The translations under genes and the position numbers were made by a program. 64,000 nt of DNA from Nitrosopumilus sp. (GTDB lineage: Archaea > Thermoproteota > Nitrososphaeria > Nitrososphaerales > Nitrosopumilaceae), in the NCBI GenBank assembly GCA_965214775.1, contig OZ243974.1, forward strand, positions 1,152,001 to 1,216,000, read 5' to 3'. Below the pieces are notes generated by a model. The model saw only the letters and a program-made list of their open reading frames with translations. It was not told the origin of the DNA and ran no database searches. This document shows positions 25,886 through 50,726 of the stretch, piece by piece; positions within the stretch are counted from its first letter, which is position 1; every line of letters starts with the position of its first letter.

Positions 25886-26065
25886 ACAACCCCCGGTGGG
25901 ACAACACAGTTATTTACAAGCAGGCAGGAGAGAAATATTATGTTAGAGTACAAGGGGCATGTTTTTCAAATTTTACAGTCATTTTACGTGAAACGGTTCG
26001 GACAGCCCTTGCACAAACAAAATACACTACATGCAGCAGAGTACGTAGCACCAGTGTGATGAGAC

Positions 26066-26719: not shown

Positions 26720-26956
26720 TACAAAAAGCAAAAAGCATAGGTCTGACTGGGGCCGTATCCTAGCCCATCAGAATTTTTGAAGTATTGGGTTAGGTGTAAG
26801 CGTTTAGGTTGAGCACGAGGCCAATTTTTGATCACCACTTGGATTCACATGTACCAAGACTGCCCCTAGATTCATTGCCTGATTCAAAGACCAAGATACT
26901 GCGCGACAAGCTGGGCCTACGTCACAGCGGAGCTCTACAAGACACGAAGCTCCGTG

Positions 26957-27050
26957 GCTGTCCAAAAAAATTTCCGCGAAATGACCGCTAGGTTATGGAT
27001 CATGGGCGTGCGGCACCGAAAGTGATTTTGATCAGCCGATTTTGTCTATA
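26957..27050 (+). mobile_element. Degenerate left end of the IS5-like element
   Basis: Inverted homology to 24725-24818. Confidence 0.65.
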
Positions 27051-27079
27051 CTGAGGTGATCCGAAATCAGAAGTCGTAC

Positions 27080-27162
27080 TATAGCAACGGGCATAAGCCT
27101 TTGAGTCAAAGTAGGTTATAACTACACGTAAAAAACCTCAATTATTTCTGCTCGTTGTTATA
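27080..27162. mobile_element. ~83-bp IS630-type MITE
   Basis: TIR TATAGCAACGGGCA / TGCTCGTTGTTATA. Confidence 0.85.
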
Positions 27163-27195
27163 CAATACAAACTACTTTTACACAAGGTTTTTTAG

Positions 27196-27858
27196 TTGTC
27201 TGTTGCACTAAAAAAAATGGCAAAACCGCCACTGCTGGCCTCTGTTATTGCATCTGCCGTACTGATGTTTTTGGCGCCTGTCTCCGGATCATCTCTTGGC
27301 GTGTATGCGCAGGATGTCTCACCGCCGGGGAAGGGGCCCGGCGGAAACGATACAAGAACTGCCAGCCTTTGCTCCTCAGAGTCCGAATGCGTGCTAATTG
27401 CAAAGAACCATACGGGCAAGGACTCCAAAATATCCCAGTCGCTGCAACACCTCATCTCTAGGCCAGACATGCGGGGGGATGACCTTACCAGATCGGCGAT
27501 GGATACCGGGGCAATGGACGGTGAAAAGATACCGGTAATCATCCGTATAAAGTCCGGCTCAGAAGGGTTTGCATTTCCAAATGATCTCGGAATAGATGTG
27601 GTCGGAACATCAGGTCTTGGCATACATGCAGACATACCGGCCTCAAGCATACTGCGGCTGGCACAATATGACGAGATAGACCGGATAAGGATGGCGCCTG
27701 CGATGATCGAGGGGCAGACAGACAATCCGGTGACATCAGGCAACGATCTGCAGTTCGTGTGGGACTTGTCATATCTTCTGGTGCTGTTGATCCCCGCTGC
27801 CGTCGTCCTAGCAGTATGGCAAGCTAGAAGGGGAAAAAGGAGGATTGTCACGGCATAG
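27196..27858 (+). CDS. Secreted, C-terminally anchored protein resembling a subtilase prodomain
   Basis: Signal peptide; KISQSLQHL...IPVIIRI...IHADIPASSILRLAQYDEIDRIR; C-terminal TM helix plus RRGKRR. Overlaps the S8 gene. Confidence 0.75.
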   Translation: MSVALKKMAKPPLLASVIASAVLMFLAPVSGSSLGVYAQDVSPPGKGPGGNDTRTASLCSSESECVLIAKNHTGKDSKISQSLQHLISRPDMRGDDLTRSAMDTGAMDGEKIPVIIRIKSGSEGFAFPNDLGIDVVGTSGLGIHADIPASSILRLAQYDEIDRIRMAPAMIEGQTDNPVTSGNDLQFVWDLSYLLVLLIPAAVVLAVWQARRGKRRIVTA

Positions 27859-30184
27859 GCCCGCCATACTGGCATCATCGCTTGCAGCGACACCACTACT
27901 GATGCTGATATTCATGTTGTCACTCGGCCAACTCTATGCCATTGCACATGGCCAGTCCGTGACAAGCCAGGGCGTATACACCGTAGAGTCGCACATAGTA
28001 AACAGTTTGGGAAACAATGGCAGCGGGATCAAGGTGGCAGTGATAGACACCGGGTTTGACGTGGACGACGCGGAGATATCATCTAACATAGCGGAGGCCA
28101 GATCGTTTCGCTCAGACGGCGACATTACGGCGGGGGGACGCACCAATCACGGGACTGCGACCGCGCAGATAGTCGTAGACGTCGCCCCCGGAGCCGAGCT
28201 GTACCTTTACAACGTCGGATCCGTGCCAAACATGATAAGGCTGATCGACTATATCATGGCAAGAGGGGACATTGACATCGTCAGCCTGTCCGTGGCATGG
28301 TGGGGCGTAGGGCCGTATGACGGGACCAGCGAGCTCTCACAAAAGGTGAGCGAGGCGCAGGACAGCGGGATACTGTGGGTATCCTCGGCCGGAAACTTTG
28401 CAGACAGTCACTGGGAGGGCACGTTCTCAGACGCAGACGCAGACGGGTTTCACAACTTTGGAACTATGGATGAGACAATATCGATCCTCGCCGAGGAGGG
28501 CTCCGTGGTGGAGCTGGAGCTCACATGGGACGACGCGTGGGGCCGGTCTGCCAACGACTATGAGCTGCGTCTCTATGACGATAACCTGAACCTGTTGATC
28601 TCCTCCATTACTACACAGGACGGCGATGACGACCCGCTTGAAACAATACAGTACCTTATTGGATCCGACGGCGTATACAACATAGTGATAGAGCGCTATT
28701 CAGGCGAGGCTAGGAACCTAGAGCTGTTCAGCTTTGGACATCCCCTTGCGGAGCACAACGTATCCGGGGGCAGCGTGATAATCCCGGCTGATGCTGCAGG
28801 CTCAGTTGGGGTAGCAGCCGTCGGTCACGACACGGAGCTGCTAAAGTCATACAGCTCGCGCGGACCCACAAACGACGGCAGGACAAAGCCGGACATCGCT
28901 GGGCCGACGGATGTGACCACGAGCGTGTACGACTCCTTTGGAGGCACGTCGGCTGCGGCCCCCCACGTCGCAGGGGTAGCAACTCTGATAAAGTCGGCCA
29001 ACCCGGCATACACACCTGACCAGATCCGGTCGATTCTGGAAGACACCACGAGGAACCACCACGAAAAGAACAACGAGGACGGAACCGGGCTGGCAAACGC
29101 AGTAAACGCCGTGGTCATGTCTGACGGATCAGCAAAGACAATGTCTGACCTACTGGGTATCTATTATGCCAGGATCGATCTGCAGGCCGCATATCCTGAG
29201 GCTGCCTCCGGCGACATGGCCGGGCTGGTCAGGTGGGCCTGGCAGTACGGAATTGTCGACTATCCCAGGGATCCGGCAGGCCCGCATGCCGTCCTGGGCC
29301 CGCACGCGCACACCTACGCACTGCTACATGTTTGGAACCAGAGGTCGGATCTGCAGGCAGCATATCCTGAGGCTGCCTCCGGCTACATGGCTGGGCTGAC
29401 GGTCTGGGCGCGCGACTGGGGAATCACCGATTATCCGGCAGACCCATTCGGCCCGCATGCCGTCCTGGGCCCGCACGCGCACACCTACGCACTGCTCTCC
29501 ATATACGACGCAAGGCCGGATCTGCAGGCCGCATATCCTGAGGCTGCCTCCGGCGACATGGCCGGGCTGGTCAGGTGGGCCTGGCAGTACGGAATTGTCG
29601 ACTATCCCAGGGATCCGGCAGGCCCGCATGCCGTCCTGGGCCCGCACGCGCACACCTACGCATTGTCCATCATCTATGACGCAAGACCAGATCTGAGAGC
29701 CGCATATCCCGATGTCGTGGCAGGCGATCGCGCAGCACTGACTGTCTGGGCGCGCGACTGGGGAATCAACGACTATCCGGATGATCCGGTGGGTCCTGCA
29801 GCGGTTCTGGGCCCGCACGCGCACACCTACGCACTGCTCTCCATATACGACGCAAGACCGGATCTGCAGGCAGCATATCCTGAGGCTGCCTCCGGCGACA
29901 TGGCCGGGCTGACGGTCTGGGCGCGCGACTGGGGAATCAACGACTATCCGGATGATCCGGTGGGTCCTGCAGCGGTTCTGGGCCCGCACGCGCACACCTA
30001 CGCACTGCTCTCCATATACGACGCAAGGCCGGATCTGCAGGCCGCATATCCTGAGGCTGCCTCCGGCGACATGGCCGGGCTGACTGTCTGGGCGCGCGAC
30101 TGGGGAATCAACGACTATCCGGATGATCCGGTGGGTCCTGCAGCGGTTCTGGGCCCGTACGCACACGACTATGGTGATGATTAA
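27845..30184 (+). CDS. Secreted S8 (subtilisin-like) serine protease with PPC-like insert and 6 C-terminal RPDL repeats
   Basis: Catalytic motifs VAVIDTG, NHGT, SAGN, KPDIAGP and GTSAAAPHVAG. Confidence 0.93.
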   Translation: MSRHRPAILASSLAATPLLMLIFMLSLGQLYAIAHGQSVTSQGVYTVESHIVNSLGNNGSGIKVAVIDTGFDVDDAEISSNIAEARSFRSDGDITAGGRTNHGTATAQIVVDVAPGAELYLYNVGSVPNMIRLIDYIMARGDIDIVSLSVAWWGVGPYDGTSELSQKVSEAQDSGILWVSSAGNFADSHWEGTFSDADADGFHNFGTMDETISILAEEGSVVELELTWDDAWGRSANDYELRLYDDNLNLLISSITTQDGDDDPLETIQYLIGSDGVYNIVIERYSGEARNLELFSFGHPLAEHNVSGGSVIIPADAAGSVGVAAVGHDTELLKSYSSRGPTNDGRTKPDIAGPTDVTTSVYDSFGGTSAAAPHVAGVATLIKSANPAYTPDQIRSILEDTTRNHHEKNNEDGTGLANAVNAVVMSDGSAKTMSDLLGIYYARIDLQAAYPEAASGDMAGLVRWAWQYGIVDYPRDPAGPHAVLGPHAHTYALLHVWNQRSDLQAAYPEAASGYMAGLTVWARDWGITDYPADPFGPHAVLGPHAHTYALLSIYDARPDLQAAYPEAASGDMAGLVRWAWQYGIVDYPRDPAGPHAVLGPHAHTYALSIIYDARPDLRAAYPDVVAGDRAALTVWARDWGINDYPDDPVGPAAVLGPHAHTYALLSIYDARPDLQAAYPEAASGDMAGLTVWARDWGINDYPDDPVGPAAVLGPHAHTYALLSIYDARPDLQAAYPEAASGDMAGLTVWARDWGINDYPDDPVGPAAVLGPYAHDYGDD
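29140..30175 (+). repeat. 171-bp tandem coding repeat, 6 more divergent units
   Basis: Same family as the repeats in the two giant proteins. Confidence 0.95.
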
Positions 30185-30200: not shown

Positions 30201-30320
30201 CAGTCTTCCCAGAAGTGCCACATCGAATCATCCTAGGCTCGAAACAATTCAAATGAGAATGCCTGCAGATCCGCATGTCGTCTACTGCACCACCACAGTC
30301 GGTTACTTTTGGGAATGCTG
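30201..30320. mobile_element. 120-bp CAGTCTTCCC MITE; supplies the stop codon of the giant GT
   Basis: TIR CAGTCTTCCCAGAAGT; homologues at 37583, 46529, 52599 and 55996 (partial). Confidence 0.8.
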
Positions 30321-33300
30321 GTCTGCGTCCCGTTGCACCTTGGCAGTTTCTAGTGCTGCCGACGGAATGCTGGCTTCTTTTGTCAGTATCTGCGTCAGGG
30401 TATCGCGAACTAGTTCCGGGGAATAGTGGGAATTGGCAAAGGCAAGGGAGTTTTTTGAGAGCGTATTCCACAAGGATTCATCAGTGTATGCTGAGATCGC
30501 CCTGTCTACAAATTCGGCAGGGTCGTCTCCAACCAACAGGATCTTGTCGTCATCTGACATACCCTCTGCCCCTATCGACGTCGTAACAACAGGCAACCCA
30601 TACGCAAAGCTACTAGTGATCTTTCCCTTAATCCCGGCCCCATATGTCAGAGGAACCAGCATGATCCTGCAGCGGTTGAGGTGTCCCTCTATGTCCGGTA
30701 GGTGTCCGAGAAAGGCGACGTTTTTGGTACCGGTGCACAGATCCCTGATCTTTTTGGACGCATTGCTTCCTATAACGTACAGCCTGACATCGGGCAGGCG
30801 CTCTCTGATCTGTGGGAATATGCGACTTGTCAGATATTCAAGGGAATCTACATTTGGTGGGTGTGTAAACCCTCCCACAAACAGGAAATCCTTTCGTTTT
30901 TCAAACGGTACGGGACTCTTTTGTGGAATCTGCAGCGGCGGAATTACGGCGACCGACAGGCCGGGATCCTCGTTTAGCAGGAATCTTGCCTCCTTGAGGC
31001 TACGGACTATGACCATATCTGACTTGCCGATAAGAGACAATTCGCCTTTGCTGTTCCTGCTTGCAGCAGTTATCTGTGATGGGTCTTGGGACAGTACGGC
31101 CATCCTGTACTCGCGGACAAAGTGAAGATCCGTAGTGTCGTAGACTATCTTGCATCCTGGCGCGTGTCTTTTGAGACGGTCAAAATATCTTGCGGTGATA
31201 TGAGGCCTTGAGGCAAAACAGACGTGAAAGGTCTCCTTGCGTCCTTTCAAAAACTCCTCAAAGTCGCGGTTTCCGTAGACGACCTCGATTCCCTTCTGCT
31301 GCAGCTCCGTAGCATATGGCTCTGTTCTGGCCAAGTTATCTGGCCAGAAGGTGACGTTGTGGTTCATGGATGCCAAGATTGAGATCACATAGTACGCAGT
31401 AAGCGAGCCCGCGTCGCGATCGTACTCTGGGACGAAGTGATCTATGTAGAGTATGTTGAGGCCGGCAGTGCGGTTCCTCTCAAAGAATACGTTCTTTGGC
31501 GAGTCTGGATGACGGCTTTGTATGATCCCTTCCCATTTTTTCATGTATCTATCCTTGTTTGTGACTTGGAATGACTTTATTCCCTGTGAGGTGTCGGTGC
31601 CTTGGGTCCTGCCTTCGTGGTGGATGAAACAGGCCATGGGCTGGTACAGGATGCTGTATCCCTTTTGCCTGATGGCCTGGCAGAGGTCATTGTCCTCCCA
31701 GTAGGCAACGTCGTATCCGGAGTCGAACCCTCCGTTCTCCTCGAAGATCTCCCGCCTGACCATCAGACATGCTCCAGAACAGTAGTCGACCTCCCTGACA
31801 AAGTTATACTCGGCCTTGTCCGGGTCGTCGCCTCTCCCGTAGTTCCATACGTTTCCGTTCCCCCAGACGATGCATCCGGCTTCCTGCAGGGTTCCGTCGG
31901 CAGACAGCAGCTTGCCTCCCACGGCACCCGTCCCCTCATTCAGGGCCAGCTTCAGCATGGCCTCCAGCCAGTTCGGCGAGGCCACCTCCATATCGTCGTT
32001 TAGAAAAACCAGATATTCGCCCCGGGCACTCTTGGATGCATGGTTGTTGATTTTTGCAAAGGAGTATTCGCCATCATAAATCAGAACCTTGTGCCTGATC
32101 CCGTCAAGGTATCGCCGCATCTCCGAATCTCCATCTTTGTTGTTTGTGACAATGATGATCTCATAGTTTTTGTATGTCGTCTTTGACTCTATAGACTCTA
32201 GGTTCTTTCTGAGATAATCGGTTTGGTTGAGGGTGGGGATGATTATGCTGACCTTTGGATTTCTTGGAAGCGTGAGGATTTCTGCCGATCCTATCTGAAT
32301 GTGCTCTCTCAGATCTTCGTCAGGCTCGGCGGGGTACTCGTTGCAGAATATCCTTGAGTTCAATTTGGGATCATCAAGTTTGATCGTCTCCGAGTATCGC
32401 CTGACTCTTTCGGACAGGATGTTGGTGGCAACATCCAAGGAGGGGGGGGGGGAAGGCTGCTCCAAAGTGGCAAAACCCATGTCTGAGCTTCTAGAGCCTG
32501 AGCTGTTGCAACTAAGAGACTGAAGGAAACCGTTGAGAATTTTCTCACCTACCTTAAGAGAATGGTATCTATCAAAATACGTTTTTCCATTTTGGCTGAG
32601 CCTTAACCAAAGATTCTCATCATCAAGAAGAGTGAAGACTGCATCGGCAAACTCTTCTTCATTGCTTGCGACAAGAACATCTTTTTTGCTTTTTAATTCA
32701 GTGCCGGCAAGTCCTAGAGGCGTCGTAATGACTGGAACGTTGAAGTTTAAAGACTCTAAGATTTTACCTTTTATTCCACCTACCACCATCATATATGCAA
32801 TGGTGGCAACAGCTCCGTCGTAATAAGGGAAAAGATCCTTTACAAAACCGGAAAAATGGATGTTAGAATTTTCCATTTTTGTTAGTTCTTTAGGCGGGTC
32901 ATTGCCTACAAAATACATCTCTATTGCAGGCATTTTTTTGAGAATAAGTGGAAATACGTCATCGATGATTTTTTTCGCGGACACCACGTTTGGGGTGTGA
33001 GAAAACCCACCCACAAAAAGAAGATACTTTCTCTCATTGAATTTTTTTACTGGCCTGGTATTTAAATGGCGAATGTCAGGAAGCAGTAAAAGTTTTTCGG
33101 AGGGAACAATTTTTTGTAACAGATTTATTTCTCGCTGGGTAATCACCATTAGGTGATCAGAGATATTGGTGAAATCTCTACCAAATTTAGTTAGTGTGTC
33201 TAGTGCTTTTTGATCATCGTCAACTTGTATGTTTTTATCTTGACTAACCAACCTGCAAAATCCGTAGAGATCATCAATATGGAGTAGAATTTTTGTTTGG

Positions 33301-36300
33301 GGGGAAGTAGTTTTAGACTGATGAAGATATTGTTTGCATTGAACAGAAGACATTCTGTTTGTATTGATAACTATCAAATCATAGTAATTTTTTCGATCTT
33401 CAAGCAAGACGGACACATCAAAATTTTGTGCGGGGATTATTTCAATCCCCAAACGTCGTAATCCGTCATTATATTCTGAGGCGCCATAGTGGCTTACAAA
33501 AAGTGTAATTTTTGAATTTAGCTGAGAAAGCAATTTTAGAATATTATACACGCGAAGATCTCCTCCGCTCTTATCGTGTTCTGTTATCCACCCATCAATT
33601 ACAAGAATTCTAACCGAATCGCGCATGTCCCGGGCAAGTAAAACGTTAGAGTCCGAAGGGATGTGCTTTGTAGAAAGGGCTTCCTTCCAAGTTTTCTGGA
33701 ATTTGGGGCGGTTGATTATCTCGAATCGCTTTGTACCGGAGGGATTTTGCGGATCCCTGGTTGAAGAAATTCCCTCATAGTGAACTATCGAAGAGAACGG
33801 AGTATACATGACACGTAGTGAGTTTTTGTGTGCGTTGAAACAAAGATCAACATCTTCATAATATGCAGGAATGTATTTTTCGCTAAATTTGCCCAATTTC
33901 TCAAAAATACTTTTCTTTACTAGTAAACATGCGCCAGAAACATAATCGACATCTCTAACAAAATTATATTCCGGTTTTAAATGATCATCATTTCTGCCAT
34001 ATGCTCGTGCTGATCCGTCATTCCAAATTATTGAACCTGCTTCCTGCAGACTGCCGTCAGGGTACAAGAACTTGGGTCCGACAATTCCAACTTTCTCATA
34101 ATGTTCAAAAATATCAAGTAAAGACTCTAACCAATTTTTTAACACAAGAGTGTCGTTGTTTAAAAACAACAGGTATTTTCCAACCGCATGGCATGATGCA
34201 AAATTATTTCCGGCAATAAACCCCAAATTAGATTTTAAATCAAACGATTTTGTATTTTTAATTTGTTTTAAAAGAAGCTTACTTGCGTTTTCAGTACAGC
34301 CGTTGTTGATTAGTATTATCTCATAAGGGATTTTGGTGTTATGTAAAACAGACGCAAGGCAATTAAATGTATATGCGGCTTTGTTATGATTTAGTATAAT
34401 TATAGAAACAATAGGCGAATCATGTTTTGGAAATGTTAGGACAGAGTTAGTGTTTGCGTATTCTAATTCTTCTCTAAATTGTTCAGCTACATTACTGCCT
34501 TCTATTTTGGGAATAAGAACCGGTTTGAATGTAAGTACTGAAGTTAAGCTAGATTTGTTCTTTTTAGCTATGAATTCCTCAATTAATTTTTTTAGACCAT
34601 GGGTTTTGGTGATGTACAAGCTAGATCTCATCACGCGTAAAAACTCGCCACTCCTAGTATTTGGCTTGAAAGTTCTATCTAGACTATTTGTAAATCCATT
34701 AAGAAATGAGAAAATCAGTGAGCTGTTGATTTGTTCTAATTCATATGCCAACGAATTATATTTTGATTGTAATTCTGCCAACTCGGAGTTTTTGTAAGTA
34801 ATCTGCTCTTTTAGAGAAAGTACACGCAAGTTTTTCGCGTCAACCTCTGCCTGTAGCCTCTTGACCATAGTGCCCAGCTCGGCCTTGTCGCCCTCCAGCG
34901 TGTCGACCTGCCTGCCCAGCTCGGCCTTGTCGCCCTCCAGCGTGTCGACCTGCCTGCCCAGCTCGGCCTTGTCGCCCTCCAGCGTGTCGACCTGCCTGCC
35001 CAGCTCGGCCTTGTCGCCCTCCAGCGTGTCGACCTGCCTGCCCAGCTCGGCCTTGTCGCCCTCCAGCGTGTCGACCTGCCTGCCCAGCTCGGCCTTGTCG
35101 CCCTCCAGCGTGTCGACCTGCCTGCCCAGCTCGGCCTTGTCGCCCTCCAGCGTGTCGACCTGCCTGCCCAGCTCGGCCTTGTCGCCCTCCAGCGTGTCGA
35201 CCTGCCTGCCCAGCTCGGCCTTGTCGCCCTCCAGCGTGTCGACCTGCCTGCCCAGCTCGGCCTTGTCGCCCTCCAGCGTGTCGACCTGCCTGCCCAGCTC
35301 GGCCTTGTCGCCCTCCAGCGTGTCGACCTGCCTGCCCAGCTCGGCCTCCCTGTCTTGCAGCTTGGATGCCAGTGAGGAAGATTCTTCCGCTAGCCGAAAT
35401 GAAGAAAGCAGTGATTCGTAATAGTGCTTGTATTTTCTTAGTTTCACCTTGTGAGAATCCGTGGAATCATCTGAAATTGCCCATTCGAGGAGGCGTGTGT
35501 AATCTCCGTTCTTGACTTCCGGAAAGGCCTTCCGCAGATCCGGTCTCAAGCGGTATATTTTCAATAGTTCGTCTAGCTCGATCTTGTAGCTCTCCAGATC
35601 GATCCGGCTTGGCTGTTGATCAGATATACTGGCCTCTTCAACTCGCATTTTCTGCATCTGTGATCTGATAAATTCACTTGAATTTTCTTCATGTGTGTTT
35701 TTATAGCAAATTTGCAACAGATCAAGAGCAGCTGCGTCGGTTGTGATAATCAGCGAGAGCTCTAACCACACCATTGCATTTTCAAATTTGCCACTGTCCA
35801 TCAACACATTGCCCTGCAACAGGTATCTTGCGTGATCGCTTTTATCGTGTTCAATCATTCGATCTAAGATCTTGGAACACTCGTGGTATTCCTGCAAGTT
35901 ATACAGGCAGTTTGCACATCCCTCCAAGGCTGGAATGTATCCCCAATCTGTTTCAAGTATGCCCCTGTAAATTCTTAGTGCATCTGTCCACTTTGATGAC
36001 TCTGCCAGCTTGTCTGCGTTGTAAAGATCTAGCAACACTTGGTTCTTTGTTAGACAATACTTTGTAGTTATATGTTTATAGACAAAGTCCTTGTTTTTCT
36101 CCATCAGTATGCTGGAGTTGCGCGTCGAGCCCTGCGTGTTGATCCAGTATTCTCCAGTGGCTTTTGGAACTCGCACAAAATAGGCGTGCTTGGAAAACCT
36201 CCTTAGAACGTCCCAGTCCTCCCAAAAATCTAGTGCCTCATCATACCTCTCAACCTTGGACAGCTCCTTTCTGTGCACCACCGCAAAATTGGGTATGAAG

Positions 36301-37559
36301 TTGTCCTGATCTACTGGATCATATCTCGCATTCTTCAGCTTCTTCAGCTTCTTTTCGATCGGAATCTGCACCCCGTCCTCATTCACCATACAGTTGACTT
36401 GGACGTAATCCGCATATACGAGCATCCTAGACTCAAATCTGACAAGCTCCCCCACGGTAACCTCCAGATGATCCGGATACAGCCTGTCATCGTCATCTAG
36501 ATACGCAATGAGCTCGCCTCCAGCTGCTGTATCTATTGCATAGTTGTTGGCATAGGACTTGCCCCTGTGTTCTTCTAGCCTGATATACCTGATCCTAGGA
36601 TCCTCAAACCCGTCAATTATACCCTTGATGTCCCTTCCCCCATCATTGACTATAATCAACTCGAAATTCTCATACGTCTGCGACAATACCGACCTTATCG
36701 CAAGTGGGATTATGGATTCCCTGTCTCGTGTGGCCATTATTACAGAAACAAGCGGGCTTTTGGGCGGCTTGGACGGGACTTGGCCTCCGCCTCGTGGCAC
36801 CCACTTTCGCAGGAAATAGTCCTTGTTCTTCTGATCCACAAACGGTGATCTCAAGTCCGGATCCCCGGCGTGCGTAGGATCACCGGTATCGGTGCGGTAG
36901 ACAAAGACGTCCCTAGCAACCAGGATCGTCCCCCCAGCCTCCCGTATCCGCCTGCAATAGTCGTCATCATACAGCGGCCCGAAGCTGAATCCCTCGTCCA
37001 AGGGCCCTATGTCGGCTACAATCTTTGATCTTGCCACCATACAAAAGCCCCCGACCCGGTGGTATTTGGCCGTCAGACCCTCATACTTGGCGTGAAAGTC
37101 CCTGCCGTATTCGGCAATATGCACGGGATCGGATCCCACGCCGCACGAATAGTCGCACTGCATGACACCTGCCGAGTTGCTCATGGGCCCGACCGCCCCC
37201 GCATCCGGGTTGCCCTCAAGGTGTCCCACGAGCGTGTCCAGCCAGCCCGGGGTCACGATGACGCTGCTGTCCAGCCAGACGGCATACCTAGCGCGAATCT
37301 TTTCCAGTCCCTGATTCATGGCCCTTACGAACCCGGCGTCTTTTTTGTTTCTGATCAGTACCGAGCCGTCAAACCTTTTGAGGTACTGCAAGGTTCCGTC
37401 CGTCGAGCCGTTGTCTACGAATATGTACCTGTAGGATATGGCGCCTTTGCTTGCCTCTACGCTCTCGATACACCTTTTTGTGCCATCCAGATCGTTACGG
37501 GTCACGATGATGATGTCGCACGTAGACGGTGTGCTCATATCAATGAAAAAAGGCTCCAC
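30303..37559 (-). CDS. Giant multi-domain glycosyltransferase: GT2-GT2-TPR-RPDL module-coiled coil-GT2-GT4-GT2-GT4
   Basis: Four GT2 starts (FVDNGSTD, VNDG/YLDDDD, FLNNDT, FLNDDM); two GT-B blocks with FVGGF.H.PN and GIKGKI; TPR-like helices. Confidence 0.93.
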   Translation of the reverse strand: MEPFFIDMSTPSTCDIIIVTRNDLDGTKRCIESVEASKGAISYRYIFVDNGSTDGTLQYLKRFDGSVLIRNKKDAGFVRAMNQGLEKIRARYAVWLDSSVIVTPGWLDTLVGHLEGNPDAGAVGPMSNSAGVMQCDYSCGVGSDPVHIAEYGRDFHAKYEGLTAKYHRVGGFCMVARSKIVADIGPLDEGFSFGPLYDDDYCRRIREAGGTILVARDVFVYRTDTGDPTHAGDPDLRSPFVDQKNKDYFLRKWVPRGGGQVPSKPPKSPLVSVIMATRDRESIIPLAIRSVLSQTYENFELIIVNDGGRDIKGIIDGFEDPRIRYIRLEEHRGKSYANNYAIDTAAGGELIAYLDDDDRLYPDHLEVTVGELVRFESRMLVYADYVQVNCMVNEDGVQIPIEKKLKKLKNARYDPVDQDNFIPNFAVVHRKELSKVERYDEALDFWEDWDVLRRFSKHAYFVRVPKATGEYWINTQGSTRNSSILMEKNKDFVYKHITTKYCLTKNQVLLDLYNADKLAESSKWTDALRIYRGILETDWGYIPALEGCANCLYNLQEYHECSKILDRMIEHDKSDHARYLLQGNVLMDSGKFENAMVWLELSLIITTDAAALDLLQICYKNTHEENSSEFIRSQMQKMRVEEASISDQQPSRIDLESYKIELDELLKIYRLRPDLRKAFPEVKNGDYTRLLEWAISDDSTDSHKVKLRKYKHYYESLLSSFRLAEESSSLASKLQDREAELGRQVDTLEGDKAELGRQVDTLEGDKAELGRQVDTLEGDKAELGRQVDTLEGDKAELGRQVDTLEGDKAELGRQVDTLEGDKAELGRQVDTLEGDKAELGRQVDTLEGDKAELGRQVDTLEGDKAELGRQVDTLEGDKAELGRQVDTLEGDKAELGTMVKRLQAEVDAKNLRVLSLKEQITYKNSELAELQSKYNSLAYELEQINSSLIFSFLNGFTNSLDRTFKPNTRSGEFLRVMRSSLYITKTHGLKKLIEEFIAKKNKSSLTSVLTFKPVLIPKIEGSNVAEQFREELEYANTNSVLTFPKHDSPIVSIIILNHNKAAYTFNCLASVLHNTKIPYEIILINNGCTENASKLLLKQIKNTKSFDLKSNLGFIAGNNFASCHAVGKYLLFLNNDTLVLKNWLESLLDIFEHYEKVGIVGPKFLYPDGSLQEAGSIIWNDGSARAYGRNDDHLKPEYNFVRDVDYVSGACLLVKKSIFEKLGKFSEKYIPAYYEDVDLCFNAHKNSLRVMYTPFSSIVHYEGISSTRDPQNPSGTKRFEIINRPKFQKTWKEALSTKHIPSDSNVLLARDMRDSVRILVIDGWITEHDKSGGDLRVYNILKLLSQLNSKITLFVSHYGASEYNDGLRRLGIEIIPAQNFDVSVLLEDRKNYYDLIVINTNRMSSVQCKQYLHQSKTTSPQTKILLHIDDLYGFCRLVSQDKNIQVDDDQKALDTLTKFGRDFTNISDHLMVITQREINLLQKIVPSEKLLLLPDIRHLNTRPVKKFNERKYLLFVGGFSHTPNVVSAKKIIDDVFPLILKKMPAIEMYFVGNDPPKELTKMENSNIHFSGFVKDLFPYYDGAVATIAYMMVVGGIKGKILESLNFNVPVITTPLGLAGTELKSKKDVLVASNEEEFADAVFTLLDDENLWLRLSQNGKTYFDRYHSLKVGEKILNGFLQSLSCNSSGSRSSDMGFATLEQPSPPPSLDVATNILSERVRRYSETIKLDDPKLNSRIFCNEYPAEPDEDLREHIQIGSAEILTLPRNPKVSIIIPTLNQTDYLRKNLESIESKTTYKNYEIIIVTNNKDGDSEMRRYLDGIRHKVLIYDGEYSFAKINNHASKSARGEYLVFLNDDMEVASPNWLEAMLKLALNEGTGAVGGKLLSADGTLQEAGCIVWGNGNVWNYGRGDDPDKAEYNFVREVDYCSGACLMVRREIFEENGGFDSGYDVAYWEDNDLCQAIRQKGYSILYQPMACFIHHEGRTQGTDTSQGIKSFQVTNKDRYMKKWEGIIQSRHPDSPKNVFFERNRTAGLNILYIDHFVPEYDRDAGSLTAYYVISILASMNHNVTFWPDNLARTEPYATELQQKGIEVVYGNRDFEEFLKGRKETFHVCFASRPHITARYFDRLKRHAPGCKIVYDTTDLHFVREYRMAVLSQDPSQITAASRNSKGELSLIGKSDMVIVRSLKEARFLLNEDPGLSVAVIPPLQIPQKSPVPFEKRKDFLFVGGFTHPPNVDSLEYLTSRIFPQIRERLPDVRLYVIGSNASKKIRDLCTGTKNVAFLGHLPDIEGHLNRCRIMLVPLTYGAGIKGKITSSFAYGLPVVTTSIGAEGMSDDDKILLVGDDPAEFVDRAISAYTDESLWNTLSKNSLAFANSHYSPELVRDTLTQILTKEASIPSAALETAKVQRDADQHSQK
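34871..35348 (-). repeat. 42-bp perfect tandem repeat x11 encoding a double-heptad coiled coil (AELGRQVDTLEGDK)
   Basis: Identical units, in frame, GC-rich within an AT-rich context. Confidence 0.97.
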
Positions 37560-37582
37560 GTATTAATAACATACTGCATGCC

Positions 37583-37703
37583 CAGTCTTCCCAGAAGTAC
37601 CGCATAAAATCATCCCGGGCCAGAAACAATTCAGATGAGGATGCCTGCAGATCTGCATGTCACCTACTGCACTGCCGTGAGTCGGTTACTTCTGGGAAGA
37701 CTG
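37583..37703. mobile_element. 121-bp CAGTCTTCCC MITE in the divergent GT/wzm intergenic region
   Basis: Perfect TIR CAGTCTTCCCAGAAGTA / TACTTCTGGGAAGACTG. Confidence 0.85.
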
Positions 37704-37747
37704 ACTATTACAGTCTAATATATATTGATATTTTTGGAAGCTCTGTT

Positions 37748-38524
37748 GTGCCCAACCTATTTTCAGATCTAATTCGTCAACGAACAATCGTATTTTCATT
37801 GGCTATTACTGATGTAAAATTGCGATACAAAAATTCGGCTCTGGGGTTTTTCTGGACATTTCTAGAACCTGTATTGATGCTAGGAATACTCTATGTTGTA
37901 TTTAGCAATATTTTGCGAAGTGAGATTGAACACTACCCGATGTACTTGCTGATCGGGCTGGTATTTTGGTATATGTTTTCAAGAGCTACAACTGCTGGAA
38001 TGACAAGCTTGCAAGACAAATCGTTTATAATCCAAAAAACATCTTTACGTCGTGAAATTATTGTTATTAGTTCTACGCTTACCGCTTTCATAATGATGAT
38101 GTTTGAACTGTTGGCGTTTGGTGTATTTGTAATAATTTTTCAATTTGTTCCGCCATTAACAATATCGTTCTTGCCTATTTTACTACTGGAGATACTCGTT
38201 TTATCTCTAGGCATAGCGTTCATCCTCTCTATTCTTAATGTTTATTTTAGAGATATTCGCTTTATTTGGCAAGTGATTCTTCAGGCGTCTTTCTTTCTTT
38301 CTCCCATAATCTATACACTTGACATGTTTCCTGAAACCATTCGTGGCATATTGGAAATTAACCCCTTCGTCCACATGTTAAACATAACTCATAGTTTAGT
38401 ACTGTATGGAACAACGCCCGAATTAAATTCCTTGTTTTACCTGATATCCACCACTGGAGCTCTGCTGGTGTTTGGATACTATTTATTTAAATCAAAAGGG
38501 AAAAAAATTGCGGAGAAAATATAA
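37748..38524 (+). CDS. wzm: Polysaccharide ABC exporter permease
   Basis: D.KLRYKNSALGFFWTFLEP, FRDI, SPIIY and INP motifs; about 6 TM helices. Confidence 0.93.
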   Translation: MPNLFSDLIRQRTIVFSLAITDVKLRYKNSALGFFWTFLEPVLMLGILYVVFSNILRSEIEHYPMYLLIGLVFWYMFSRATTAGMTSLQDKSFIIQKTSLRREIIVISSTLTAFIMMMFELLAFGVFVIIFQFVPPLTISFLPILLLEILVLSLGIAFILSILNVYFRDIRFIWQVILQASFFLSPIIYTLDMFPETIRGILEINPFVHMLNITHSLVLYGTTPELNSLFYLISTTGALLVFGYYLFKSKGKKIAEKI

Positions 38525-39270
38525 TGTCTGAAAGCATTGCTTTAAGATTAGAAAATGTTTCAAAAACATTTCGTATTCGATCAAATAAAGACAGTACACT
38601 GTTTGAATTTTTAACCTCTTTTTGGAAAAATAATGTTGATGAAGAATTGAAAGTTTTACAAAATATCAACCTAACTATTCACAAGGGTGAGACATTAGGA
38701 ATATTGGGTCTTAACGGAGCTGGAAAAAGCACACTATTAAAAATTTTAGCACAAATCTACGCTCCTGACTCTGGAACATTGCACGTTAATGGGAAATTAA
38801 CCCCTTTCTTGGATCTAGGTACTGGATTTAATGGAGAGCTTTCTGCACGAGAAAATGTTTATGTTTATGGCATATTGTTAGGATTATCAAAGAAACAAAT
38901 TACTGATAAAATAGGTGACATTTTTGAGTATGCAGAACTTGAAAAATTCAAAAACACAAAATTGAAGAATTTTTCTTCTGGCATGGTGGCAAGATTGGCA
39001 TTTTCGACAGCTATTACCGTTGATCCTGATGTCCTGTTGGTTGACGAAGTTCTGGCAGTCGGCGATGCACTATTTCGCCAAAAAAGCTACAAAGCATTTT
39101 TAGACTTTAAACAGAAAAACAAAACAATAATTATTGTCTCTCACTCAGTAACCCAAATTCAAGATCTGTGTGACCGAGCAATACTACTTTTCAACGGAAA
39201 AATTATTTCTGACGGTGTTCCTGATGTTGTTGCTAAAGAATATGCAAAACTAATTGACACTAAATCGTAA
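38524..39270 (+). CDS. wzt: Polysaccharide ABC exporter ATPase without a C-terminal CBM
   Basis: GLNGAGKST, FSSGM.ARLAFS and DEVLAVGD motifs; 248 aa. Confidence 0.94.
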   Translation: MSESIALRLENVSKTFRIRSNKDSTLFEFLTSFWKNNVDEELKVLQNINLTIHKGETLGILGLNGAGKSTLLKILAQIYAPDSGTLHVNGKLTPFLDLGTGFNGELSARENVYVYGILLGLSKKQITDKIGDIFEYAELEKFKNTKLKNFSSGMVARLAFSTAITVDPDVLLVDEVLAVGDALFRQKSYKAFLDFKQKNKTIIIVSHSVTQIQDLCDRAILLFNGKIISDGVPDVVAKEYAKLIDTKS

Positions 39271-39329
39271 TTACGTTGTTGCGTTTTAACCACGGGTGTG
39301 AGGTCACGTAGTATTCACGGCTACCGTAT

Positions 39330-39621
39330 GAGACGTTATATCAAACCTTATCTGTAGCGGACGCCATATTATCCGTGTTGGACCCAAGAGCCCAAGTAAA
39401 CTTGCCACATATGAGGGCGTGTAAGAGACTGGCTCAGAGTAGGCGGACAACGAAATGCCACATCATCGAGGGCGAATGGGAGTTTTCCGTTCAGTTGGGC
39501 ACACACACTTTGATCAACATGGAGGTGATATCATGATCAACATAGGAATAGACGTTCATAAGAAGACATGTATGGTAACCATCAAAGAGTAAGAGACGTT
39601 ATATCAAACCTTATCTGTAGC
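39330..39621 (+). mobile_element. IS110-family left-end relic (non-coding leader plus 19 codons) between 29-bp direct repeats
   Basis: GAGACGTTATATCAAACCTTATCTGTAGC at 39330 and 39593; GGAGGTGA RBS, then MINIGIDVHKKTCMVTIKE*. Confidence 0.65.
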
Positions 39622-39786
39622 TAGTTTGTTGCATAACCCTTCCTAAAATTTGAAATCTGACCGAAAATCACCAAAATGATCAACTAATCCTTACCGAAAA
39701 AGTAATGGATCATGAGGATGCCTCGTATGGTATACATTGACACAAACAGACAATGCAAAGTACGTAAAGAGGGGGGCAGGCCTATA

Positions 39787-42009
39787 CTGACGATCATTGA
39801 AAATTTCGCCTGATTACACGTCTTGTGAAGGTTTATAGATCTCCGCCATGGCCATTCTGACATGAACAAGACGAAAATCCTCACGGATGCCATGCGTGTG
39901 GAAAAGGATACCAGGATTCACACCAGAATTCTGGCGGTGCGTAGTATCTACGTCAGCCATTTGTTCATCTTTACCACCTTTATCTCGCCCCTGCGCGTCA
40001 TACTGCGCAGTGATCTCTGCATCTCCTTGACGGTCTTGTAAAGGCAGTTTGAAGTCGCCTTTTTGAACCCGCGCCACTGCCCCTCCGAGTTGTTAAGCTC
40101 CGGCGCGTACGGTGGCAGGTACTTTAGCACCACGTCCCCGTTCCACTTGGCCATCTTTCTATTGAGTTCTGCTGACTTGTGGTACGATGCGTTGTCGACA
40201 AACAACAACACCTTGCCGTACTTGCGGCGCAGTGTCCTGAGAAACTTGTAGAATGTTCCCGTGTTGGCCTTTTCGTAAAAGCGATAGTCAAACCTGTTTC
40301 TTGAGAGGGCCCCTATGACATAGAACCTTCCTGGACAGGCTGACGGGCGTATAGACCGGCTCTCCTACGGGGTACCAGCTGTTCTTGACGTTCCATCCCA
40401 GTATGAACATGGACTCGTCGCCTATCATTACCATGTACCCCTTTTTTGAATAGTACTTTGCGCTCTGCCTAGCTTTTTTTTTGAACTCCTTTTTCTCGGA
40501 TTCTGAGGCTGATTTTGGGTGTTTTGGCCTGGGCTTTCTGCATGAGAAGCCGATTCTGTGCAGCAGGTCGTACATGCTCGTTTCTGCATACGTGATGCCG
40601 AACTTCTTTTTGACGTGGGCAATGACCAGCGGCCCTGTCCATGTTGTGGCCTTAAAGCCGCAGTTGTCCGGGCCCTTGATCAGGTCTGCGCGCAGCCGTT
40701 CAAGCTGTTTCTTGTCGAGCCTGCACGGGGCGCCATGCTTTATGTCAAACCTGCCCTCCAGGCCATGCTTGTGCGCACGCACCAGCCAGTATCGTACGGT
40801 TCCATACGGCCTGCTCAGCTTCTCGGCAATATCATATATGCTCGCGCCGCACTTTCTCATGTGGTATGCAAGGAGCCGGATTGCCGCCTTGGCGTCCTTC
40901 TCGGACTTGTGCATCCTAAAAAGCTCGTCCTTGCTTGCTATCCCGTACAGGAACGCTGTTCCCGTCGGTAATTCCTTCTTTCCTTTCATGTGTATATATG
41001 GGACTAATAGCTCTTAGATCCTTTGGTTGAAAAAAATTGTCCTTTTTGTGATCAATTGGTAGCCGAGGATACTACGCTCCGTACTGCTTGGCAACACCAC
41101 TGCACAGACCGCAGAGATTGCCGACGTGACACAGCGTACCATACAGATGTGGGTCGAGAGGTTTGAGCTTGACGGCGTTGACGGTCTCCGTGACTCCCCC
41201 AACAGGGGCAAAAAGCCAAAGGTTCCAATCAACAGAATAAAAAAGATCGCCATGAGGCTGCGCAGGATGGAAAAGCTCACCCCAAAGAAGATGCGCAACT
41301 GGGTGCGCCGCAAACTGCATGTAACATACAGCGTTGGAAGCATCAGAAGAATCCTGCGCACGATGGGATTCTCGCTAAAGACGTCAACTACCAAGCTGGC
41401 AAATGCTGCCGACGCAAAGGAGGTAAGACGGTGGCAAAGGGAGGCAAAAGACACGATTAGGCTTGCAAAAAGGCGCGGATTCAGGATAACCGTACAGGAC
41501 GAGTCGATATTCGTCAGTACGGGAAGGGACGGCAAAAAGTTCTGGTCGCCAGTGGGGGACAGAATCGAGGTGCAACGATCCGGCAGAAGGGAGCGCGTCG
41601 TGGTATACGGAACGGTTGCAGACGACGGAACCAGGCTGATGCGTACATACGACAAGTTCAACAGCATAAACTTTGTGCGTTATCTCAAGCAGGCGCGCAA
41701 AAGTGGGGAAAGGTTCTGATTGTGATGGACAACGCAGCACAGCACAAGACCGGAAGGGTCCACAGGTACCTGAAGAAAAATCCCGACGTTGTCCTGCTGT
41801 ACCTGCCGGTAGCTAGGCCGGAGCTGAGCGCCATAGAGCCAATCTGGAAGGATGCCAAGTACAGGCTGGTCACATCTGCCTTTTATGATACGGCAGATCA
41901 CCTCAAAAGGGCCGTCTCAGAATACTTTAGGACGTGTTCCATCAAGGTTGACATCTACAAGTATCTTGAGCGCAGCGTGTAATCAGGCGAAATTTTCAAT
42001 GATCGTCAG
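39787..42009 (+). mobile_element. IS630-family element B, disrupted by nested IS630-A and frameshifted
   Basis: Long TIR CTGACGATCATTGAAAATTTCGCCTGATTACAC; TA TSD; intact copy at 56232-57320. Confidence 0.92.
39942..41074 (-). mobile_element. IS630-family element A, copy 2 (2-bp deletion, pseudogene)
   Basis: Near-identical inverted copy of 11399-12533; frameshift near 40325. Confidence 0.92.
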
Positions 42010-42054
42010 TATAGGTGTGTCAATTACGCATAAAGTCTAATATAATTATCGTCC

Positions 42055-43098: not shown

Positions 43099-43145
43099 CG
43101 ACAACATCAAACAGTTTAATACCGTACGCTGATGATGCCTAAAGC

Positions 43146-43754: not shown

Positions 43755-43778
43755 TATTGAATCGTACTTTGCCCAATA

Positions 43779-50557: not shown

Positions 50558-50726
50558 GGGCTATTTTCTACCCGTCGGCCAAATAACGGTTTGGAGGCAG
50601 GGGCATGGGATCACGTCTCCTTACTGCCATGCATGCGAGTCATTACACTGAGTTGAAGGGTGTTTTTGACAAATTCTGAATTTTCAATAAGGTGTAAAGC
50701 TAGGCTGGTGCTGTTGACAAAACTAA

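What the first reader, a model, noticed from the sequence alone, without database searches (positions are those of the whole stretch)
34740..35420. VNTR-encoded coiled-coil 'molecular ruler' inside the giant glycosyltransferase
Seen: 11 identical 42-bp units encode exactly two heptads each (AELGRQVDTLEGDK). They separate the N-terminal GT2-GT2-TPR-RPDL part from the C-terminal GT2-GT4-GT2-GT4 part, in a gene divergent from wzm/wzt. Established: coiled coils in WbdD and WbbB set O-polysaccharide length in ABC-dependent pathways. Inference: gain or loss of units keeps both frame and heptad register, giving a heritable dial for glycan chain length. The absence of synonymous differences implies recent expansion.
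Basis: partly seen in the sequence, partly recalled or inferred. Interest (0 to 1): 0.8.

Follow-up and report, generated by a model that had tools for sequence, protein, structure and literature searches.

The report
Repeat-built coiled-coil stalk in archaeal glycan synthase
A perfect 42-base tandem repeat builds most of a long helical stalk inside a giant sugar-chain-making enzyme of an ammonia-oxidiser-type archaeon, and related genes carry different numbers of the same unit, so stalk length, and possibly sugar-chain length, can change quickly.

Summary
TRF finds 11.4 head-to-tail copies of a 42-bp unit at 34871-35347, 100% identical. They encode (AELGRQVDTLEGDK)x11 plus AELG, residues 739-896 of a 2418-aa ORF (30303-37559, minus strand). 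The domain order is GT2-GT2-TPR-'RPDL' domain, coil, GT2-GT4-GT2-GT4, and the gene is divergent from wzm/wzt. The array lies in one heptad register with its flanks (about residues 704-961). AlphaFold2 models residues 702-963 as helix.

Copy number does vary. An ortholog at 64% identity has 3 copies of nearly the same unit. A paralog 43 kb away in a sister genome has its own 42-bp (x7.1) and 84-bp (x4.8) arrays. A 98.7%-identical allele of that paralog differs by exactly 56 residues, or 4 units. The same gene in the sister genome has an array 49 nt shorter and out of frame; that may be real or an assembly error.

The host is an archaeon, so there is no LPS. Wzt lacks the cap-reading CBM, and the N-terminal module belongs to no known terminator family. 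The ruler function therefore rests on analogy and is untested. I rate it a new variant of a known kind.

The parts
30303..37559 (-). Giant multi-module glycosyltransferase ORF. It is 2418 aa from the GTG start; the database copy P0002 starts at M8 and is 2411 aa.
34871..35347 (-). Perfect 42-bp tandem array of 11.4 copies, encoding residues 739-896: (AELGRQVDTLEGDK)x11 plus AELG. G+C is 72% and GC3 is 1.00.
34671..35456 (-). Whole predicted helical stalk, residues 702-963. It has one continuous heptad register, and the array supplies 22 of its roughly 37 heptads.
   Evidence: AF2 helices 702-833 and 840-963, pLDDT 80-91 in the array; register analysis; sub-threshold coiled-coil Pfam hits
35421..35579 (-). 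'RPDL' domain, residues 661-713, just N-terminal of the stalk. It is an uncharacterised all-alpha domain of about 55 aa.
   Evidence: HMM match E=1.3e-25; no Pfam family
35760..36005 (-). TPR region, residues 519-600.
36267..36746 (-). Second GT2 domain, residues 272-431. Its YLDDDD motif is kept in 11 of 12 relatives aligned; P0136 reads YADDDD.
36882..37514 (-). First GT2 domain, residues 16-226. The usual LNND/LNPD motif is replaced here by LDSS.
34545..34724 (-). Conserved post-stalk linker, residues about 946-1005. It is shared with P0122, P0008 and P0009 and is a candidate membrane- or polymerase-docking segment (inference).
32556..34406 (-). Middle GT2-GT4 module (GT2 about 1052-1267, GT4 about 1504-1668). 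It is low in G+C (GC3 0.33-0.34).
   Evidence: 39% identity to P0008
30450..32258 (-). C-terminal GT2-GT4 module (GT2 1768-1984, GT4 2217-2370), with GC3 0.59-0.67.
   Evidence: 88.7% nt identity to the paralog
37748..38524 (+). Wzm-type ABC-2 permease, divergent from the glycosyltransferase gene across a 188-bp spacer.
38524..39270 (+). Wzt-type ATPase of 248 aa. It has the nucleotide-binding domain only and no carbohydrate-binding module.

Best explanation
The array is an in-frame coding minisatellite. It expanded or was homogenised recently, and it supplies 154 of the roughly 262 residues of one continuous alpha-helical, heptad-periodic stalk. The stalk sits inside a single-polypeptide glycan assembly enzyme of an archaeal (Nitrososphaerota) Wzm/Wzt-dependent pathway. 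It separates an N-terminal GT2-GT2-TPR-RPDL module from four C-terminal glycosyltransferase domains that are probably the polymerase. Each unit is exactly two heptads, so slippage or unequal recombination by whole units changes stalk length by about 2.1 nm per unit without breaking frame or register. The array as it stands contributes about 23 nm. By analogy with WbdD, WbbB and the K. pneumoniae O7 ORF6 protein, the stalk most likely acts as a spacer. On this view the distal N-terminal module can act on the growing chain end only once the chain spans the stalk, so repeat number would set modal chain length. Shown here: the array, the helix and register, the domain order, the transporter linkage, and copy-number differences among relatives. 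Inferred: homo-oligomeric coiled coil, N-terminal module acting as chain terminator or capper, and any effect of stalk length on glycan length. My sub-confidences are: array real 0.97; helical heptad stalk 0.9; unit number evolutionarily labile 0.85; ruler function 0.45.
For: The array is perfect. AF2 models residues 702-963 as helix with pLDDT 80-91 across the array. Using the array's own register, hydrophobic a/d occupancy stays at 5/8 or better from about residue 704 to 961 with no proline. wzm and wzt are divergent neighbours.

The array is reproduced, with at least 9 intact units, in an independent assembly of a 99.8%-identical genome (L001).

Copy number varies. P0125 shares 64% identity over the N-terminal module and has GDKAELGRQVDALE x3. 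P0126 and P0122 match at 1212 of 1228 aligned residues and differ by one gap of exactly 56 aa, or 4 units. A related 28-aa unit occurs about 1x in P0001, 2.1x in P0127 and 4.8x in P0122.

In the family survey, 12 of 121 relatives have internal tandem repeats (at least 2.5 units, at least 60% identity), and all 12 have a period that is a multiple of 7.

Relatives P0015 and P0049 have the order methyltransferase, repeat coil, GT2, GT4. That is the canonical terminator-ruler-polymerase order described in PMC11231755 (passages read). The same paper reports a TPR-like bundle before the coil in the O4 terminator.

In the coil-fused lineage the first GT2 often loses its LNND/LNPD motif, while the second keeps its DDDD acidic run in 12 of 12 (YLDDDD in 11; P0136 reads YADDDD). 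This fits a single-addition capping enzyme better than a two-site polymerase, but it is an inference.
Against: The Wzt here (248 aa) and at the paralogous locus (242 aa) have no CBM. PMC11231755 states that all terminated O-polysaccharide systems have one.

The N-terminal module belongs to no known terminator family. Its PDB relatives are ordinary GT-A enzymes such as PglI, chondroitin synthase and SpsA. It also exists as a stand-alone protein of about 680 aa without a long coil, so it could be an adaptor-building or polymerising enzyme instead.

Each 14-aa unit has two glycines and a lysine at one 'a' position, which is not ideal coiled-coil sequence.

The AF2 monomer folds the helix back on itself at residues 834-839. 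I regard this as a monomer artefact, because the turn falls at the midpoint of a perfectly periodic sequence, but an antiparallel hairpin would halve the span.

In L001 the same gene's array is 49 nt shorter, which is not a whole number of units. The gene is split into three ORFs, and an IS sits between it and wzm. Instability can therefore destroy the gene rather than tune it, or that assembly is wrong.

The host is an archaeon, and the product and its acceptor are unknown.
Confidence: 0.5

Rival explanations
1. The stalk is only a structural or oligomerisation scaffold. It holds the catalytic modules together or positions them at the membrane, and it measures nothing. Repeat gain and loss are tolerated because they stay in frame and in register, so the length variation is neutral drift, as is typical of coding minisatellites in coiled-coil proteins.
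For: Neither locus has a Wzt CBM, and no recognised terminator domain is present. Stalk-region repeat spans range from 41 to 302 aa among proteins that share the same N-terminal module, which could mean that length is unconstrained. The genome is generally repeat-prone: there are 171-bp arrays at 98-99% identity in three other genes.
Against: Among the 12 of 121 relatives that show internal tandem repeats, every period is a whole number of heptads. The order of distal enzyme, coil, GT2, GT4 recurs with different distal enzymes, including methyltransferases, in P0015 and P0049. That is the pattern shown experimentally to be a ruler in WbdD and WbbB, according to PMC11231755. Arrays at two paralogous loci are kept perfect and in frame.
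Confidence: 0.3
2. The stated copy number is an assembly artefact. A perfect 477-bp repeat cannot be resolved by short reads and can be miscounted in long-read consensus, so the '11 units' and the differences from L001 may not be biological.
For: L001's array has irregular partial units (deletions of 21, 10 and 18 nt). L001 also has a C12 run where the window has C11. Both are classic sites of consensus error. No reads were available to me.
Against: Two independent assemblies both carry the array with at least 9 intact units. The window's version is perfectly regular and keeps a 2418-aa frame open. L001 is otherwise accurate: across the ~7.5-kb gene alignment it shows 16 substitutions, and inside the gene its only indels are the three in the array and one homopolymer indel. 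Clean whole-unit differences are also seen in separately deposited proteins.
Confidence: 0.12
3. The locus is a decaying mosaic acquired by horizontal transfer, and the array is a slippage scar with no maintained function.
For: G+C composition is a strong mosaic: GC3 is 0.25-0.36 for wzm, wzt and the middle module, against 0.65-0.68 for host-like genes. IS fragments flank the locus. In L001 the gene is frameshifted twice and an IS lies in the divergent promoter region.
Against: In the window the 7.3-kb frame is intact, with catalytic motifs kept in three of the four GT2 domains. The paralog is also intact at 2091 aa. A dead gene would not keep 11 in-frame, substitution-free units next to an intact C11 tract.
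Confidence: 0.08

Closest known systems
WbbB (Klebsiella pneumoniae O12 / Raoultella terrigena) and ORF6 of K. pneumoniae O7
   Same: Both are single polypeptides with a distal N-terminal enzyme, a central extended coiled coil and C-terminal polymerising GT modules, encoded beside wzm/wzt. The coil is described as a molecular ruler (PMC11231755, passages read).
   Different: Here the N-terminal module is GT2-GT2-TPR plus an uncharacterised RPDL domain, not a Kdo transferase or a methyltransferase-kinase. There are four C-terminal GT domains rather than two. Wzt has no CBM. The host is an archaeon. Most of the coil is a perfect DNA tandem repeat. No sequence match to WbbB was found in the PDB search.
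WbdD (E. coli O9a / K. pneumoniae O3, O5)
   Same: In WbdD a coiled-coil spacer separates the terminating catalytic sites from a membrane-proximal end where the polymerase acts, and coil length sets the size distribution (PMC11231755 passages; PMC3482155 seen in a search listing only). The conserved post-stalk linker here would correspond to WbdD's membrane and polymerase-recruitment region, by inference.
   Different: WbdD carries only the terminator and recruits a separate polymerase, WbdA. Its coil is not known to me to be repeat-encoded (recalled).
ORF7 of K. pneumoniae O4 (GT137 terminator)
   Same: It is a glycosyltransferase-type terminator with a TPR-like helical bundle directly before the coiled coil (PMC11231755). 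The window protein likewise has TPR repeats before its stalk.
   Different: ORF7-O4 has a different catalytic fold, and its polymerase is on separate proteins. O4 Wzt has a CBM.
WsaE of Geobacillus stearothermophilus (S-layer glycan)
   Same: It is a multi-domain enzyme (N-terminal methyltransferase cap plus two rhamnosyltransferase domains) in a wzm/wzt-linked pathway that is not LPS, and its product is transferred to a surface protein (PMC2943079 passages). This is the likelier kind of destination in an archaeon.
   Different: The passages I read do not describe a coiled-coil ruler. The review says an additional length factor may be needed.
Repeat-containing protein rulers such as the injectisome needle-length protein YscP (recalled, not checked here)
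   Same: The idea is the same: natural duplication of sequence repeats changes the length of a protein ruler and hence of the structure it measures.
   Different: It is an unrelated protein and process. This comparison rests on recall only.

Membership tests
Coiled-coil ruler proteins of ABC-transporter-dependent glycan assembly (WbdD/WbbB type) | Extended coiled-coil region in a protein encoded in a wzm/wzt-linked glycan locus | tested here: met
   The helix spans residues 702-963, with a continuous heptad register from about 704 to 961. wzm and wzt are adjacent and divergent.
Coiled-coil ruler proteins of ABC-transporter-dependent glycan assembly (WbdD/WbbB type) | [quoted passage not shown] | tested here: inconclusive
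   The distal module is GT2-GT2-TPR-RPDL, which is not a known terminator family. The first GT2 has lost the LNND/LNPD motif, while the second keeps DDDD. Activity is unknown.
Coiled-coil ruler proteins of ABC-transporter-dependent glycan assembly (WbdD/WbbB type) | Polymerising GT modules at, or recruited to, the other end of the coil | tested here: met
   GT2-GT4-GT2-GT4 follow the coil. Homologous GT2-GT4 modules follow coils in P0008, P0009, P0015 and P0049. Polymerase activity itself was not tested.
Coiled-coil ruler proteins of ABC-transporter-dependent glycan assembly (WbdD/WbbB type) | Wzt carries a C-terminal carbohydrate-binding module that reads the terminal cap | tested here: not met
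   Wzt is 248 aa with only an ABC_tran domain. No CBM-like ORF lies in 39271-42054. The paralogous locus's Wzt is 242 aa.
Coiled-coil ruler proteins of ABC-transporter-dependent glycan assembly (WbdD/WbbB type) | Coil length determines glycan chain length | not testable with these tools
   This needs engineered unit numbers and glycan sizing.
Coiled-coil ruler proteins of ABC-transporter-dependent glycan assembly (WbdD/WbbB type) | Parallel homo-oligomer (dimer or trimer) | not testable with these tools
   This needs SEC-MALS, cross-linking or EM. The a = V/K, d = L/L pattern is merely compatible with it.
Lipopolysaccharide O-antigen system | Gram-negative bacterial host with LPS | tested here: not met
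   The same gene, at 99.8% nt identity, lies on a record titled 'MAG: Nitrosopumilaceae archaeon'. Archaeal-type AglJ-like, rmlA_long and Arch_glmU matches occur in the window.
Coding minisatellite (in-frame VNTR) | Head-to-tail near-identical units whose length is a multiple of three | tested here: met
   The array is 42 bp x 11.4 at 100% identity.
Coding minisatellite (in-frame VNTR) | Copy number differs between closely related genomes | tested here: inconclusive
   For this gene, the window has 474 nt and L001 has 425 nt. The difference is not a whole number of units and breaks the frame. For the paralog's homologous array there is a clean 4-unit difference at 98.7% identity. For an ortholog, 3 units against 11. 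The within-cluster members of P0002 could not be listed.

The most novel reading that the evidence does not exclude
Soil or water ammonia-oxidiser-type archaea may tune the length of surface glycans with repeat-encoded protein rulers at two or more paralogous Wzm/Wzt loci. Each 14-residue unit (about 2.1 nm, roughly the span of one tetrasaccharide made by the four downstream GT domains) would add about one glycan repeat. Slippage would then create heritable, reversible length variants within a population. This would act as a contingency mechanism against viruses or grazers, and it would work without the transporter CBM checkpoint that bacteria use. The RPDL domain next to the stalk, which also forms C-terminal arrays on secreted giant proteins, might bind the same glycan.
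Probability: 0.15. Interest if true: 0.8.

Novelty: new variant of a known kind. Interest (0 to 1): 0.6.

Why it matters
Coiled-coil rulers are the accepted way in which ABC-transporter-dependent pathways set glycan length. The evidence for them, however, comes from engineered insertions and deletions in a few enterobacterial proteins. This locus offers a natural series: the same 14-residue, two-heptad unit occurs at 3 and 11 copies, a sister array occurs at 3 and 7 copies in near-identical alleles, and relatives have repeat regions spanning 41 to 302 residues. That makes the relation between length and product directly testable with natural variants. It also shows how ruler length evolves, by duplication of whole heptad multiples. 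The architecture is extended to Archaea and to a system without a Wzt CBM, which raises the question of how termination and export are coupled there. If chain length does not follow repeat number, the result would limit how far the ruler model can be generalised from domain architecture alone.

Tried and rejected
1. Complex prediction with two copies of residues 690-960 gave no verdict (score 0.08 against a mark of 0.32; controls were not run). I draw nothing from it in either direction.

P0002's 90% cluster holds 5 member sequences. Within-cluster copy-number variation therefore stayed unchecked.

3. The protein-atlas search on the RPDL region gave no usable hit. An earlier attempt failed on a length limit.

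4. Foldseek of the RPDL-array model against the PDB gave 0 matches at E <= 0.001. The top rows were ARM-repeat solenoids with TM about 0.2. No function can be inferred.

5. The PDB sequence search with the whole protein returned 11 GT-A-type chains and nothing for the stalk or for a WbbB/WbdD-like terminator.

6. Literature searches for natural repeat-length variation in glycan rulers, or for archaeal Wzm/Wzt coiled-coil enzymes, found none in the held library. The primary WbdD paper (PMC4650267) is not held. The WbbB ruler paper and Mann et al. 2019 (Glycobiology) did not appear in my searches, and I read neither. These three may bear on novelty.

7. I considered that the antisense ORF 34861-35421 (+, 186 aa) might be a gene. 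I rejected this: it is the stop-free reverse strand of a G+C-rich repeat.

8. I considered the AF2 hairpin (turn at 834-839) to be real. I rejected it as likely a monomer artefact, because the turn lies at the midpoint of a perfectly periodic sequence.

Full report
**Observation.** Tandem Repeats Finder reports one array at 34871-35347 with period 42, 11.4 copies, 100% matches and no indels (score 954). The raw sequence shows the same.
- The array lies in a minus-strand ORF, 30303-37559, of 2418 aa.
- It translates to eleven complete AELGRQVDTLEGDK units (residues 739-892) followed by AELG.
- It is 72% G+C with every third codon position G or C (GC3 1.00). The flanking parts of the gene have GC3 0.33-0.53, and host-like genes in the window have 0.65-0.68.
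- The ORF on the opposite strand (34861-35421) is a by-product of this stop-free repeat.

**Gene and surroundings.** Pfam gives this domain order:

| Element | Residues |
|---|---|
| GT2 | 16-226 |
| GT2 | 272-431 |
| TPR | 519-600 |
| Many sub-threshold coiled-coil families | about 700-945 |
| GT2 | about 1052-1267 |
| GT4 | about 1504-1668 |
| GT2 | 1768-1984 |
| GT4 | 2217-2370 |

It is a real domain: an HMM built from it matches 9 of 261 stored proteins, and no Pfam family covers it.
- An ABC-2 permease (37748-38524) and a 248-aa ABC ATPase (38524-39270) are transcribed divergently, 188 bp away. Their best NCBIfam matches are Wzm- and Wzt/TagH-type exporters, below the curated cut-offs.
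- Further along are IS fragments and heptose-nucleotide genes: HddA-, GmhA- and GmhB-like plus a 4,6-dehydratase-like gene.
- The same stretch also holds a sulfotransferase, a PMT-type GT-C enzyme fused to a LamG domain, and an AglJ-like polyprenyl-phosphate hexose synthase.

**Organism.** It returned two loci, both on a 3.2-Mb contig titled 'MAG: Nitrosopumilaceae archaeon' (phylum Nitrososphaerota).
- L001 is the same gene. Over the 7.5-kb gene region it differs by 16 substitutions, and the wzm/wzt and heptose regions are 99.9% identical.
- L001 is nevertheless a different genome. It has a 1.7-kb IS between the glycosyltransferase gene and wzm. It also lacks about 7.4 kb that the window has between two 171-bp repeat arrays.
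- Archaeal-type sugar-activation and AglJ-like matches in the window agree with this assignment.
- The product is therefore not an LPS O-antigen. I did not verify the family label by phylogeny.

**Is it a coiled coil?** AlphaFold2 on residues 501-1010 (single sequence) models helices at 702-833 and 840-963, with block-mean pLDDT of about 80-91 across most of the array.
- I fixed the heptad register on the array, with d = L741. In this register a = V and K, and d = L and L.
- Hydrophobic a/d occupancy then stays at 5/8 or better, with no proline, from about residue 704 to 961. The array and the eight low-G+C heptads after it therefore share one register.
- The turn that the monomer model places at 834-839 falls at the midpoint of a perfectly periodic sequence, so I treat it as a monomer artefact.
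- At 1.485 A per residue, a unit adds 2.08 nm, the array 22.9 nm and the whole helix 38.9 nm.
- Each unit also contains two glycines, which is unusual for a coiled coil. Oligomeric state is not established.

**Does the number of units vary?** Yes, in every comparison I could make, though not always cleanly.
- *Same gene, L001.* The array is 425 nt against 474 nt in the window, with deletions of 21, 10 and 18 nt. The frame breaks, and the gene appears as ORFs of 899, 831 and 748 aa. A C11 tract (window 32442-32452) is C12 in L001. Three of the four indels inside the gene fall within the array. Both sites are also classic places for consensus error, so I cannot say whether this is biology.
- *Paralog.* L002, 43 kb away on the same contig, encodes a 2091-aa paralog (P0122) with the same N-terminal module. 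Its stalk contains an 84-bp array (4.8 copies, 100%). A 42-bp array (7.1 copies, 99%) encodes AELGTQVDELERDK just before its GT2-GT4 module. This locus has its own wzm and wzt (242 aa, no CBM), a methyltransferase and a sulfotransferase.
- *Allele of the paralog.* A separately deposited protein, P0126, matches the last 1284 residues of P0122 at 1212 of 1228 aligned positions. It has a single gap of exactly 56 residues, or four units. Its repeated units carry R where those of P0122 carry T, so each array is homogenised within its own genome.
- *Ortholog.* P0125 is 64% identical over the N-terminal module, including the RPDL domain. It carries GDKAELGRQVDALE three times, followed by a different polymerase.
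- *More distant orthologs.* P0006, P0007, P0003 and P0004 are 51-56% identical by BLASTP. Their 14-residue-period regions span 41, 239, 279 and 302 residues.
- *A second unit type.* A related 28-residue unit is present about once in P0001, 2.1 times in P0127 and 4.8 times in P0122.
- *Wider survey.* Of 121 proteins (120 database hits plus P0122), 12 have internal tandem repeats of at least 2.5 units at 60% identity or more. All 12 have periods of 7, 14, 21 or 28.

**What the stalk probably does.** Passages of PMC11231755 state four things:
- An extended coiled coil marks the terminator-containing protein of ABC-transporter-dependent O-polysaccharide assembly.
- Coil length was shown to act as a ruler in the E. 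coli O9 and K. pneumoniae O12 systems.
- The formats vary, from all-in-one (WbbB, O7 ORF6) to fully split (O4).

The window protein matches the all-in-one format.
- Its GT2-GT4 modules have relatives in which the distal enzyme is a methyltransferase (P0015, P0049) or a GT4 (P0044, P0074), again separated from the GT2-GT4 module by a repeat-bearing segment.
- A conserved linker of about 60 residues follows the stalk in P0001, P0122, P0008 and P0009. It may correspond to the membrane and polymerase-docking region of WbdD, but this is inference.
- The first GT2 has lost the LNND/LNPD motif that the stand-alone relatives keep (4 of 4). The second GT2 keeps its DDDD acidic run in 12 of 12; 11 read YLDDDD and P0136 reads YADDDD. 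This fits a single-addition capping enzyme, also by inference.

**What does not fit.**
- PMC11231755 says every terminated system has a CBM on Wzt. Neither Wzt here has one, and no separate CBM ORF lies nearby.
- The N-terminal module is not a recognised terminator. It also occurs alone as a protein of about 680 aa with a short basic amphipathic tail, so a primer, adaptor or second-polymer role is possible.
- The locus is a compositional mosaic with IS elements around it. In L001 it looks inactivated.

**Verdict.**
- Supported: the structural and evolutionary parts of the interpretation, namely two-heptad units, preserved frame and register, recent expansion and variable unit number.
- Untested: the functional claim, a heritable dial for glycan length. 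It is a reasonable analogy that meets three defining features of the known ruler systems, fails one (the Wzt CBM), and leaves the decisive ones untested.
- I file it as a new variant of a known kind: a repeat-encoded, fast-evolving stalk in an archaeal, CBM-less version of the terminator-ruler-polymerase architecture.
- I found no description of such natural repeat variation, or of archaeal examples, in the held library. Three relevant papers were not read: PMC4650267 is not held, and the WbbB ruler paper and Mann et al. 2019 did not appear in my searches.

Noticed in passing
window 9282-10419, 20652-22131, 29177-30166: 171-bp (57-aa) tandem arrays form the C-termini of two 2028-aa LVIVD/cadherin-type proteins and a subtilase. 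They have 6.7, 8.7 and 5.8 copies at 98%, 99% and 81% identity. They encode the same 'RPDL' domain that sits before the stalk in the giant glycosyltransferase. The domain has no Pfam family. Fifteen further array proteins were found, none with a function name (5 are labelled 'hypothetical protein'; the rest carry no name). AF2 predicts small all-alpha units (pLDDT 65), and Foldseek finds no PDB match. A domain shared by secreted proteins and a cytoplasmic glycan synthase might bind the glycan or the membrane surface; this is untested.
   Followed up: partly
L002 9968-16243 (paralog), arrays at L002 11961-12366 and 12752-13049: A second giant glycosyltransferase (2091 aa) lies 43 kb away in the sister genome. 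It has two perfect or near-perfect arrays (84 bp x4.8 and 42 bp x7.1). It also has its own wzm, wzt, methyltransferase and sulfotransferase.
   Followed up: yes
window 32442-32452 (minus strand C11): An 11-base C run lies inside the coding linker (QPSPPPS) between the middle and C-terminal GT2-GT4 modules. The sister genome has C12, which splits the gene. This could be a slippage switch or a consensus error.
   Followed up: partly
window about 21880-29257 versus L001 17318-18234: The sister genome lacks about 7.4 kb (IS elements, two unknown ORFs and most of the subtilase). The junction lies inside the 171-bp RPDL arrays of the LVIVD protein and the subtilase, as expected from recombination between arrays.
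   Followed up: partly
L001 8044-9757, equivalent to window about 37776-37781: In the sister genome a 1.7-kb insertion carrying a DDE_Tnp_4 transposase sits between the glycosyltransferase gene and wzm, at or just inside the annotated 5' end of wzm.
   Followed up: partly
window 30303-39270: Composition is a strong mosaic. GC3 is 0.70 in the first GT2, 0.33-0.34 in the middle GT2-GT4, and 0.59-0.67 in the last GT2-GT4. It is 0.25-0.36 in wzm and wzt, against 0.65-0.68 in neighbouring host-like genes. This suggests assembly of the gene from modules of different origin.
   Followed up: partly
window 42055-45459 and 46939-47850: HddA-, GmhA- and GmhB-like genes plus a 4,6-dehydratase-like gene point to a heptose or 6-deoxyheptose nucleotide precursor. 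A sulfotransferase lies nearby. No HddC-type nucleotidyltransferase was seen between them.
   Followed up: no
window 47957-52359: A PMT-type GT-C enzyme fused to a LamG domain (866 aa) lies next to an AglJ-like polyprenyl-phosphate hexose synthase. This pairing resembles the systems that add side-chain sugars outside the membrane (PMC11127046 seen in a search listing only).
   Followed up: no
window 14944-15279 and 46367-46465; IS-type ORFs at 458-1495, 1941-2552, 2626-3852, 11484-12518, 23007-24161, 24821-25861, 40288-40989, 56259-57245: There are two more perfect short direct repeats (167 bp x2.0 and 47 bp x2.1). The density of transposase genes and fragments from several IS families is unusually high.
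   Followed up: no
P0129, P0134, P0136, P0151 (database proteins): The GT2-GT2-TPR module also exists as a stand-alone protein of about 680 aa with an intact LNND/LNPD motif and a short basic amphipathic C-terminal tail instead of a stalk.
   Followed up: partly
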